Shown here: in pieces, positions 4,801-7,800 of the stretch
How the letters are laid out: each line of letters opens with the position of its first letter
Numbering within the stretch: position 1 is the first letter of the stretch
NCBI GenBank assembly: GCA_963693365.1
Contig: CAVNZM010000004.1
Location: 3,184,389 to 3,248,388, forward strand
Length of the DNA stretch: 64,000 nucleotides
Origin: Amoebidium appalachense
Lineage: Eukaryota; Protista; Ichthyosporea
Direction of reading: 5' to 3'
Position numbers and translations under genes: made by a program
Notes under the pieces: generated by a model
What the model was told of the DNA's origin: nothing
Database searches by the model: none
What the model saw: only the letters and a program-made list of their open reading frames with translations

Positions 4801-7800
4801 GGGGGGGGGAGAGAGAGGAGGTCAGGCACTTAGGGAGACAACCGTTAACAACAAGCACGAACCACCTGCACAAGCAAGGTGTGCCAACCACACATAGGCA
4901 CCAAGGATGCTCAAGTATGAATCAGAAAGTCAGTGTTGAATAGTATTCGTATTAAATTCTGACTTACAAACAAGCATTCCATCTTGAAAGTCTCAGAAAG
5001 GTCCAAAAAAAAAAAAACAAAAAAAAAAAAAAACAGCCACCGGGCGTATCCACATGCAAAACATACATGCAGCAACATGCAGTGATACATTTTTGCTTCG
5101 TGTTGAAATAAATCGTGTTTTTAGGTGAGATAACCTGAACGTAGTGCGACAGGTGTGAGTGTGCCAGGTGGTAATTTGTGACATGGTGAGGTGCTGGTGT
5201 GTGCTTGCTATGTATGTATTTGTGCATGGGTGGGTGGTTGAGCCTGTGTAAGTGTGTGTGTCGGTGTGTACCCGAACGTGCTTGTGCGCAAGGTGTGTAT
5301 ACGTGTTCTTTTTTTATTTTTTATTTTTTATTTTTTAATCTTTTTTTTTGTTGTTGTTGTGGGGGGGGGGGGGGGGGGGGGGGGGGGGTGTTTAGGGGGG
5401 GGGGGGGGGGGAGGGGGAAGGGAGGGGGCGAGGGGGGAGGGGGGAAGGGGGGGAGGTTGATTTAGACATACCCGTGCTGCTTCCACATCTGGTAGACGTT
5501 GAGGAGGGTCAGGTGGTCAGATTCGGGCACAAAGAACTTCTCTCTGGCTGCATCACTCTCCTCCTCCTTGCCTTTGGGCCGGTAGAAGATGGTGGGCACG
5601 GACAGCATGGATACGATGGACTGCGCCACAAGTGCAATCAGTAACACAGCATGTGCAATCCAGTACCAGTGCACATGCAAGAAGTACCACCACATATGCA
5701 ATCACTATACCATTACACACGAAGTTAATACCACAGCACGGCATATGCAGTCAGCACAACGGCATATACAAAAGTACCACAGCATGTGCAAGCAGTACCT
5801 CCACATCTGCGAGAAGTACCAGCACACAAGCAAACAGAACCACTGCACATGCGACGAGTACCACCACATGTGCAAGCAGTGACACCACATGCGCAAGCAA
5901 AATCTTCACATGTGCCAGCGGTGCTACGACATGTAGAAGCAGTACGCACTTAGTATGTGCGTGTGTGTGTGCCTGCCTGCATGCGTCTGTGTGTGTTGTG
6001 TGTTTCTGTGTGTGCGTACCACGTGCGAGCAACACGTGCTCGTTGTTGCTGACAAGTGGTGTCAGTCTAAGCCGGGAAGAGGATGGTAGCACCATGCAAA
6101 CCTCCAAAAACCCTTCAGAGCAAGGAAAGAAAGGCAAGAAGGTAGAATGCAATATGTTCTCTTGGGCCGGGCGCGCGCAAGGTGTGTGCATGTGTGTGTG
6201 TGTGTGTGTGTGGTTACGTAGATAGGGATCATACCAACACTTCGGCCGTGCAGCCCAGCTCCTCAGCCGTGATGAGCATCTTGCCCATGGCCGGGTCCAG
6301 GGGGAAGTCCACTGCAACAGAATTCAGTAACCCCATCGTACTGGGTCCTACAAATAACTAAACATGTTTGTGTTTGGCAACACGATATCTGCATCATCCC
6401 TCCTCACCAACTCGTATACCCCCCCCCCCCCCCCCCCCCCCCCCCCCCCCCCCCCTTCTCAAAATAATAATAATAGTAACAATAATAATAAATGAAATAA
6501 GGCTTAGATAATCCTGATATTACTTCTATTTACTATCTGTTAAATCACCGTATGTTGATGAGTTTTCTCGGGTCAATGTTATCTAAGTCGTTCTCTCCTC
6601 CGTATCCGAGAGTAAGGCTTTTTTTGATTTTCTTCTCTGAGATATCTGTGATATCTCGAATGCTTCTTTTTTAAATGGGCATCTCAATAAAGTCATTTAA
6701 AAAAAAAAAAAAAACACCTACCCGCCCTCCCCAGGAACAGTAAGGAACCCAACATCATACTCAATCCCACAATGACCCACTACTGTAAGTTGGAGTTTCA
6801 TTCTAGCACCACAAATAACACATCCCTTCCCACCAGCCCTCTTATATCCCCCCCCCCCCCCCCCCCCCCCTCCCTCCTCACACATCCCCCCTCCCCGCCC
6901 AACCACCCACCACTACCACCACCAAGTAAATATCTCCACTCCTCCCGACCTACACCCTACATAACAGGAAGACAGCCCTTAACACTATCCACCCTCTAAG
7001 CTAACCATTGCATGGTTACTAACCCATCTTGCGGCCCAGTGCTGTGATGGTTCCTGTGTTATCTAGGGCACCCAGAATCCACAGCTGGTACAGCGAGTTC
7101 ATGATGTTTTCCTGCACGGGCACAGTGTCAGCATGGCTACAGTTTACAGTTCCACACTATGTGTAGCATAAAGTCATGTGGTGCAAAGAGGCATAAGAAA
7201 AGGGGGGGGGGGGGGGGGGGGGGGGGGGGGGGAGGGGGGGGGGATGTATGTGTTAGAGGGTTGGGAATATGAAGGAGACAACAAAGAGTAACAACAAAGC
7301 ATCACAAAAGTGGGAAATCCAAAATCAAACAATCTAAGGGTGCAGGCAGAAGACACTTGAACAGAGCCCATCATCAGGGGGGTTCGTATGCCTCCACAAA
7401 AGCATGGGTTTCGACTTTTGAACCTCTAGCGCGTGGTCCCAACCCATACTTTGTTTCAACAGCAATAGGCGAGTCCACCCGTCTTGGCCAAAGACGAGCA
7501 GGGTTGTTCGGGAGAAGGGGGTCTCCAGTGCCAAGGCAAAGCATAAAGGCTGTGACAGCTACACATGAGACCGAATAAGACCAATTTTCAGCAGTTAACG
7601 GTGCAAAAACAAGATTGAGGCACCAGAAAAAACGAAAATAAGGGAACGAAGGGAGAAAAAGTTGAAGTTGACACCGGTCGTGGTGGTGTGGTTATTTTAT
7701 TTTTCTTTAATCCTGGGGGAAGGGGGGGAGGGGGGGGCGGGGGGAGGGGGCAGGGGGGGTTACCTGGGGTGGGGGATCCATGAAGTGGAATTCCATAAGG

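What the first reader, a model, noticed from the sequence alone, without database searches (positions are those of the whole stretch)
7335..7520. Intronic repeat family carrying a hammerhead ribozyme core in non-circularly permuted strand order
Seen: copies at 7335-7520(-), 17050-17190(-), 54219-54470, 54483-54635, 54799-55082 and 57770-57960(+) share blocks matching the three hammerhead core strands. Strand A (stemIII'-GUU|-stemI) is GUAUGGGUU|GGG or GUCUGAGUU|GGA. Strand C (stemII'-GAAAC-stemIII) is GUCGAAACCCAUGC or GUCGAAACUCAGAC. Strand B (stemI'-CUGANGA-stemII) is CCC-CUGAUGA-UGGGCUC or UCC-CUGAGGA-UGGGCUC. Stem III is compensated across copies (aaagtatgggt/acccatgcttt, acagtatctgagt/actcgggtactgt, gtctgagt/actcagac) and stem I covaries (GGG/CCC vs GGA/UCC). 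Established: canonical type I/II/III hammerheads use the cyclic order A-B-C. Here the order is A-C-B, which makes a pseudoknotted core. Stems I and II lie side by side in the hammerhead fold, so a direct linker between them is feasible, and I recall natural non-circular permutations being reported in other organisms. Inference: this is a self-cleaving retrozyme- or SINE-like family, with copy E predicted to cut between 7441 and 7440. Stem II (GGC/GUC after a short U/UG insertion) is the weakest part of the model.
Basis: partly seen in the sequence, partly recalled or inferred. Interest (0 to 1): 0.9.

Follow-up and report, generated by a model that had tools for sequence, protein, structure and literature searches.

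The report
Split-core scrambled hammerhead in protist repeat
A short repeat scattered through the introns of what is likely a single-celled relative of animals carries all the parts of the self-cutting hammerhead RNA in a rearranged order with its core interrupted by two extra helices, a wiring also visible in published animal Naiad jumping genes said to lack canonical hammerheads; it is predicted to cut itself, possibly as a pair of copies, but this is untested.

Summary
The repeat family is real: 8 intronic copies, sharing 3' ends at poly-C runs. The strand order S-G-C, stem III, stem I and the predicted cut at 7441/7440 check out. Only copy E is intact. Copies A and C carry one core defect each; the other five are truncated or decayed.

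A better partner lies upstream of the cleavage strand (4-6 bp, compensated), and the bases after CUGAnGA pair with the element's 5' end. The core is therefore split between A9 and G10.1 by a helix plus a hairpin, which breaks the block rule of Eckert 2023.

The same wiring, with unrelated stems, is visible by eye in 8 published Naiad consensi (5 sequence families; Craig 2021 supplement). This scan noted it earlier in animal genomes, and that lead shaped my reading. New here: a likely ichthyosporean host, poly-C targeting, and a geometric argument that the long stem III favours a domain-swapped dimer. Cleavage, the dimer and the parent element are untested.

The parts
7235..7530 (-). Copy E, the only copy with intact core and all stems, in a PRP16 intron, sense orientation; 5' boundary uncertain (may reach about 7720)
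7501..7509 (-). E: 5' strands of closing helices P0a (7509-7505, pairs 7363-7359) and P0b (7503-7501, pairs 7369-7367, just after CUGAUGA-U)
7476..7500 (-). E: inserted hairpin P4 (9-10 bp) directly before G10.1
   Evidence: mean pair probability 0.91
7472..7475 (-). E: stem II 5' strand (G10.1 = 7475), pairs 7416-7413
7438..7452 (-). E: block S: stem III 5' strand (7452-7442), H17 = 7441, predicted cut 7441/7440, stem Ia (7440-7438)
7420..7424 (-). E: stem Ib 5' strand, pairs 7385-7381 after a looped-out insert; 3-nt linker to stem II
   Evidence: weakly supported (pair probability 0 in nested folding)
7399..7416 (-). E: block G: stem II 3' strand, GAAA (7412-7409), stem III 3' strand (7409-7399)
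7359..7385 (-). E: stem I 3' strand, CUGAUGA (7377-7371), extra U, then P0b and P0a 3' strands
54205..54468 (+). Copy A: full length; stem II 6 bp (54263-8/54320-5), IIIa 13 bp, IIIb 7 bp (54269-75/54347-53); first stem I pair broken at 54359
54483..54632 (+). Copy B: 5'-truncated, block C and tail only
54790..55082 (+). Copy C: full length, G12 changed to A (54912); stem II 6 bp (54844-9/54906-11), IIIb 7 bp; a unique 160-nt stretch upstream (54636-54790) may belong to it
57770..57960 (+). Copy D: 5'-truncated inside the S-G linker; blocks G and C intact
16885..17200 (-). Copy F: decayed (GAAA and CUGAnGA lost), interrupted by a poly-C/poly-T run
16750..16855 (-).
   Evidence: (E 7e-5)
15995..16135 (-).
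   Evidence: 38 nt at 84%, E 2e-5; E 3.3

Best explanation
The repeat carries a hammerhead core wired stem II 5' strand - S - G - C, with A9 and G10.1 separated by a closing helix and a hairpin; it is likely the 3' end of a Penelope-like retroelement of the Naiad/Chlamys clade and is predicted to cut itself after GUU (7441/7440 in copy E). SHOWN: motif order, the stems and their compensations, one intact copy, shared 3' ends at poly-C, intronic position. INFERRED, fold: the RNA first forms a rod (P0, P4, IIIb, IIIa). Its terminal loop holds H17, the stem I 5' strand, the stem II 3' strand and GAA. Its internal loop holds the stem II 5' strand and the stem I 3' strand with CUGAnGA. Docking the terminal loop into the internal loop forms stems I and II (three mutually crossing helices) and assembles the normal core. 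INFERRED, partner: where stem III is long and joined to stems I and II by 0-2 nt, docking within one molecule looks too strained. I favour (about 50:50) docking between two copies, such as the two pseudo-LTRs of one transcript, which would release a unit-length RNA for reverse transcription. Copy E has a weak IIIb and could fold alone. INFERRED, spread: copies inserted by target-primed reverse transcription at poly-C, often 5'-truncated, and most have since decayed.
For: A split-core descriptor hits E only: 0 of 300 window shuffles, 0 of 81 and 0 of 240 motif-selected loci. Allowing one defect it returns exactly E, A and C, against 1 hit in 60 shuffles. The split model has 10 of 39 pairs changed on both sides (shuffle mean 3.8; 0/500) and beats all slid registers. 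Upstream stem II is 4, 6 and 6 bp in E, A, C, with C-G versus U-A at its fourth pair. RNAfold finds P0a, P4 and upstream stem II unaided in copy C. The same wiring with unrelated stems was read by eye in Naiad_Amil, _Aacu, _Anas, _Plae, _EuTe, _Obim, _Ovul and Naiad-2_Movir. Naiad/Chlamys elements show 5' truncation and microsatellite bias, (C)n in Chlamys. A crude ring-closure estimate is short for 4 of 5 Naiad families and marginal for copy A. PLE hammerheads are proposed to act as dimers.
Against: No cleavage data. Only 3 full-length copies, 1 intact; related sequences can beat the shuffles without structure, and both the structure and the descriptor were derived from these same sequences. 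In the MAFFT alignment E's stem II is off register, so one search shows no two-sided change in stem II; the compensation rests on motif anchoring. The docking-ready rod lies 10.9 (E) and 6.6 (A) kcal/mol above the MFE, and stem II has probability 0 in nested folding of E and A. A competing hairpin around CUGAGGA forms in C and D. No RT or GIY-YIG ORF among 93 ORFs scanned, so the parent element is not shown. Other Naiad passages show canonical-order cores instead, and no Chlamys passage I saw had the split core. Geometry constants are assumed; copy E and the octopus Naiads pass as monomers.
Confidence: 0.72

Rival explanations
1. One reading: a type-SGC hammerhead as in Eckert 2023, with stem II formed by GGC after a UG insertion.
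For: The 3 pairs are kept in 14 of 15 cells. The S-G-C order is right. Eckert allows insertions of 1-2 nt. In copy C the duplex reaches -5.6 kcal/mol.
Against: No two-sided change. Passed by 7 of 8 chance cores. It uses the GGG that pairs with the 5' CCC. It leaves the compensated upstream helix unexplained. In 4 of 5 Naiad families the bases after A9 cannot pair with the strand before GAAA (by eye).
Confidence: 0.07
2. The split-core fold is right but works as a monomer, with the distal part of stem III (IIIb) melting or bending as a switch. This is a variant of the best explanation and shares its confidence; the figure is my odds for monomer given cleavage.
For: With IIIb melted the linkers are long enough in A and E; E and octopus pass even with IIIb formed. 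Type-SGC ribozymes with a similar geometric puzzle were described as cis-cleaving.
Against: IIIb is compensated, has probability 0.88 in A and costs about 10 kcal/mol to melt in A. It is present in all 5 Naiad families read.
Confidence: 0.5
3. The fold is a non-catalytic or extinct structure (for example an RT-binding or packaging signal of hammerhead ancestry) and does not cleave.
For: 7 of 8 copies are defective. The A9-G10.1 link was assumed uninterruptible. PLE min-HHRs cleave poorly in vitro. The docked state is not favoured in nested folding.
Against: CUGAnGA, GAAA, the U16.1-A15.1 pair and a non-G H17 are all kept in E and in 5 Naiad families whose stems are unrelated; decay of genomic copies is expected.
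Confidence: 0.15
4. The element is a retrozyme, SINE or endogenised viroid-like circle rather than a Penelope-like 3' end.
For: No ORF. Type-SGC ribozymes come from viroid-like metatranscriptome RNAs. A and B lie head to tail. The 2026 preprint argues that animal retrozymes derive from PLE pLTRs, so the labels overlap.
Against: No tandem array of the unit. No tRNA gene. No opposite-strand ribozyme in Rfam scans. Fixed 3' end with variable 5' truncation at poly-C.
Confidence: 0.15
5. Chance co-occurrence of short motifs in an ordinary structured repeat.
For: An S-G-C core with short stems appears in 8 of 300 window shuffles; the descriptor is post hoc.
Against: The full architecture appears in 0 of 300 shuffles and 0 of 321 loci, and recurs in independent published elements.
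Confidence: 0.02

Closest known systems
Type-SGC hammerheads (HRIMA-1 and variants; Eckert et al. 2023, PMC10085705; read: abstract, sections 7, 13, 14, 15, first part of 18, passages; supplements not opened)
   Same: S-G-C order, pseudoknotted core, short stem I to stem II linker, all conserved core bases.
   Different: Block C is broken: the stem II strand lies 5' of block S and two helices sit between A9 and G10.1, which that paper assumed impossible. Here it is in nuclear DNA; their SGC RNAs were not found in genomes of known organisms.
Naiad/Chlamys Penelope-like elements (Craig et al. 2021, PMC8557442; read: passages, supplement parts 1 and 19, motif passages of Files S5/S6)
   Same: Same fold near the 3' end in 8 Naiad consensi (by eye); 5' truncation; microsatellite targets.
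   Different: The paper reports no canonical HHR and notes only 'core' or 'half core' motifs. Naiads were described in animals with (TA)n bias; this family uses (C)n like Chlamys, in a likely ichthyosporean. Stem I is bipartite here. No ORF seen.
Canonical type I/II/III hammerheads (Rfam clan CL00010)
   Same: CUGAnGA, GAAA, GUH, G10.1-C11.1, extra U after A9.
   Different: Three-way junction without pseudoknots. No match at gathering score; best RF00008 14.3 bits against a cut-off of 48.5, E 4.9.
Minimal dimeric PLE hammerheads (Cervera and de la Pena 2014, PMC4209133; passages) and non-LTR retrozymes (bioRxiv 10.64898/2026.07.22.740005; part 1 of 5 and passages)
   Same: Hammerhead in a PLE-derived repeat; proposed two-copy action releasing unit RNAs.
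   Different: Those are type I in canonical order, with stem III shared between copies. Here stem III is long and intramolecular, and stems I and II would be the swapped helices.

Membership tests
Hammerhead ribozyme (any wiring) | Core bases C3-U4-G5-A6-N-G8-A9, G12-A13-A14, A15.1-U16.1, H17 | tested here: met
   copy E; A and C have one defect each
Hammerhead ribozyme (any wiring) | Stems I, II and III flanking the core | tested here: met
   E: I 3(+5), II 4, III 11 bp
Hammerhead ribozyme (any wiring) | Site-specific self-cleavage after H17 | not testable with these tools
   needs an in vitro assay; no read data obtained
Canonical type I/II/III | Cyclic order C-G-S, no core pseudoknot | tested here: not met
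   order is S-G-C; no Rfam hit
Type-SGC (Eckert 2023) | Block order S-G-C | tested here: met
Type-SGC (Eckert 2023) | Intact block C: stem II strand within 2 nt after CUGAnGA | tested here: not met
   a 3-bp candidate exists but is non-discriminating; the stronger compensated partner is upstream; not yet settled by experiment
Naiad/Chlamys PLE | N-terminal GIY-YIG, CxC motif and RT ORF | tested here: inconclusive
   none among 93 window ORFs; no genome held
Naiad/Chlamys PLE | 5' truncation with shared 3' end | tested here: met
   B, D, G truncated; 3' ends abut poly-C
Naiad/Chlamys PLE | Microsatellite insertion bias | tested here: met
   3' ends run into C-runs, copy G apart; (C)n reported for Chlamys
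Naiad/Chlamys PLE | Partial tandem (pLTR) arrangement | tested here: inconclusive
   A and B are adjacent but differ in sequence and are separated by poly-C
Naiad/Chlamys PLE | Nucleotide or RT phylogenetic link to described families | not tested
   published consensi were only read by eye
Non-LTR retrozyme | Tandem units each with a type I hammerhead | tested here: not met
tRNA-derived SINE | tRNA-like head | tested here: not met
   ARAGORN 0 genes; insensitive to degenerate heads

The most novel reading that the evidence does not exclude
A fourth-strand hammerhead class, shared by Naiad retroelements and a single-celled relative of animals, that works as an antiparallel domain-swapped dimer. 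Each rod docks its terminal loop into the partner's internal loop, so cutting happens only when two copies (the two pseudo-LTRs) meet: a ribozyme that counts its own copies and leaves lone intronic insertions harmless. This would also explain the geometric puzzle Eckert et al. left open for some type-SGC RNAs.
Probability: 0.33. Interest if true: 0.9.

Novelty: new variant of a known kind. Interest (0 to 1): 0.77.

Why it matters
If it cleaves, the hammerhead core tolerates a break and two helices between A9 and G10.1, so the six-permutation scheme is incomplete and standard descriptors and Rfam miss a whole class. It would overturn the reading that Naiads proliferate without a hammerhead, and make the open question of what PLE ribozymes do testable with a simple two-mutant complementation. 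It would place a non-circularly permuted ribozyme in nuclear DNA and, if the host call holds, outside animals. A loop-receptor ribozyme that needs two copies would be a ready-made RNA AND gate.

Tried and rejected
No whole genome is held and no sequencing-run data were obtained, so there is no genome-wide alignment, expression or RNA-end evidence.

Rfam: 0 hits at gathering score over the window. The E-value scans gave repeat-driven matches and one weak RF00008 match.

Pattern scans found no relative. Viral contigs gave 9 loci, then 120 + 120 loci from scans that stopped at 15/64 and 21/64 parts. Metagenome contigs gave 72 loci. None passed the descriptor, and the first 81 had no nhmmer hit. 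They served as nulls. Prokaryote genomes were not scanned.

Sequence look-up in earlier findings: nothing. Word look-ups for a dimer reading: nothing.

Pfam on 93 of the 140 preselected ORFs: no RT or GIY-YIG. The first homologue search was empty; the second gave 1 hit of 51 candidates.

One search used a mis-registered structure string and is superseded.

HDV, twister, pistol and hairpin readings were considered by eye and dropped; Rfam gave no support. I first misassigned two supplement passages (to Darwinula and Morbakka-1, as in my notebook); searches show they are Naiad_EuTe and Naiad_Plae.

Literature searches found no description of this wiring and no Amoebidium PLE report. The library lacks most subscription papers, I did not open the Eckert supplements, and bioRxiv supplements are closed.

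Full report
SETTING. The window is from an intron-rich eukaryote full of poly-C and CA runs. It holds a DEAH helicase gene that I recognise as PRP16 (about 3000-24150, minus strand; the name is from recall), a prolyl-4-hydroxylase-like gene (about 52460-58940, by eye) and an RGS gene with DEP and DHEX domains. The only homologue found for an RGS exon (1 of 51 candidates, 71/95 identical) is an Amoebidium parasiticum protein. The host is therefore likely an ichthyosporean; this rests on one hit, not a tree. No genome is held.

THE FAMILY. BLAST and nhmmer find eight copies: E, F, G, H on the minus strand and A, B, C, D on the plus strand; H is the weakest. All lie in introns and all are in the sense of their host gene. 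That may simply follow the poly-C strand bias: C runs versus G runs on the sense strand are 27:1 in the plus-strand gene but only 38:27 in PRP16. Copies share the 3' end, which runs into poly-C (G apart), and differ at the 5' end (B, D, G truncated).

The order GUH, GAAAC, CUGAnGA is real, and in copy E gives U16.1 = 7442, C11.1 = 7413, C3 = 7377 and a predicted cut at 7441/7440. Stem III and one stem I pair are compensated. Only E is intact: A has a broken first stem I pair, C has G12A, and the rest are partial or decayed.

THE REVISED WIRING. I had seen the pairing of the 5' end with the bases after CUGAnGA before looking at earlier findings. I saw the upstream stem II after one search listed an 'open-core' hammerhead in Naiads. 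The strand before GAAA pairs with a strand upstream of block S: 4 bp in E, 6 bp in A and C, with U-A versus C-G at the fourth pair. That strand follows a 9-10 bp hairpin (P4). After A9 and one U, GGG pairs with CCC just before the hairpin (P0b), and a further helix (P0a) is compensated between E and A/C. The order is thus II(5')-S-G-C, with a helix and a hairpin between A9 and G10.1. A and C also have a 7-bp extension of stem III (IIIb) with a U-G to A-U change.

STATISTICS. The split descriptor hits E, 0 of 300 window shuffles, 0 of 81 and 0 of 240 motif-selected loci. With one defect allowed it returns exactly E, A and C, against 1 hit in 60 shuffles. On the five-sequence alignment, 10 of 39 pairs change on both sides (shuffle mean 3.8, 0/500) and the true register beats all slid ones. 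These numbers are inflated by relatedness and by post-hoc design, and MAFFT misplaces E's stem II by one column. Against the model: nested folding gives stem II probability 0 in E and A (0.95 in C, where stem III is lost), and the docking-ready rod is 6.6-10.9 kcal/mol above the MFE.

INDEPENDENT SUPPORT. In the consensus files of Craig et al. 2021, read by eye in motif passages, the same arrangement (P0b, hairpin, stem II 5' strand, IIIb, IIIa, UH, stem I, 1-5 nt, stem II, GAAA, stem III, stem I, CUGAnGA, P0b) is present near the 3' end of Naiad_Amil, _Aacu and _Anas (near-identical, one family), Naiad_Plae, Naiad_EuTe, Naiad_Obim and _Ovul (one family) and Naiad-2_Movir. That is 8 consensi in 5 families, with unrelated stem sequences. 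I did not survey all 54 Naiads, so this is not a frequency. Other passages show canonical-order cores. Naiad_Ppla and the consensus ending just before Naiad_EuTe did not parse clearly, and no Chlamys passage I saw had the fold. Craig et al. reported no canonical HHR in Naiads but noted 'core' and 'half core' cases, and (C)n targets and non-autonomous families in Chlamys.

MECHANISM. All nested helices form a rod with two loops that must dock to make stems I and II. Stems II and III stack coaxially in the known structure, so the far end of stem III lies away from the far ends of stems I and II. Yet here they are joined by 0-2 nt (0 nt in copy A). A crude estimate with assumed constants (2.8 A per bp, 11 A core, 6.5 A per step) is short for Acropora, Plae, EuTe and Movir-2, marginal for A (49 versus 46 A), and sufficient for E and octopus (the Acropora IIIb count used was 10, recount 9, same verdict). 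Either IIIb melts (about 10 kcal/mol in A) or two rods dock antiparallel, each giving S and G to one core and C plus the stem II 5' strand to the other. PLE transcripts carry two pseudo-LTRs, and dimeric action of PLE hammerheads has been proposed. I put the dimer at about even odds given cleavage. This step is inference only.

WHAT IT IS. Most likely 5'-truncated ends or a non-autonomous derivative of a Naiad/Chlamys-clade element. The ORF criterion could not be met in the window. It is not a canonical hammerhead, not type-SGC as defined, not a tandem retrozyme, and shows no tRNA head.

NOVELTY. Nine paper searches found no description of this wiring. A 2026 paper mentions hammerheads 'with additional helices or alternative permutations', citing three references; passages of one, Forgia 2023, showed no such form, Eckert is another, and the third I did not see. 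Five earlier findings of this scan report the same wiring in animal genomes; they are unchecked AI notes, and I verified only their Naiad claim, by eye. New in this window: the likely non-animal host, poly-C targeting, the bipartite stem I, and the dimer argument, which two look-ups did not find among earlier findings.

VERDICT. Observation partly confirmed; interpretation partly supported; new variant of a known kind; interest 0.77.

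Noticed in passing
window 57143-58365 (+): Head-to-tail array of a roughly 200-nt CA/poly-C-rich unit (81-87% identical copies) into which copy D is inserted; could be a second microsatellite-targeting non-autonomous element.
   Followed up: no
window 6504-6704 and 26021-26955: A second dispersed repeat (82-89% identical segments), next to an ORF remnant at 25327-25869 that resembles a LINE C-terminus by eye (no Pfam hit).
   Followed up: partly
window 58500-58943 (+): Prolyl-4-hydroxylase-like last exon that seems to lack the C-terminal iron-binding His (by eye; no Pfam hit at E 0.01), so possibly catalytically dead.
   Followed up: no
window 60845-64000 (+): RGS gene with DEP, DHEX and RGS domains; its one homologue found is from Amoebidium parasiticum.
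   Followed up: partly
window 44516-46099 (-): Intronless 527-codon ORF with several hydrophobic segments and no Pfam hit, unusual in this intron-rich window.
   Followed up: no
window 7335-7347 (-): A 13-nt stretch of copy E's tail matches exactly a passage near part 49 of the Craig 2021 supplement (Chlamys file); family not identified, may be chance.
   Followed up: no
window 28476-41218 (both strands): Thr-rich, secreted-looking repeat-protein exons and a Gly/Met-rich ORF, no Pfam hits.
   Followed up: no
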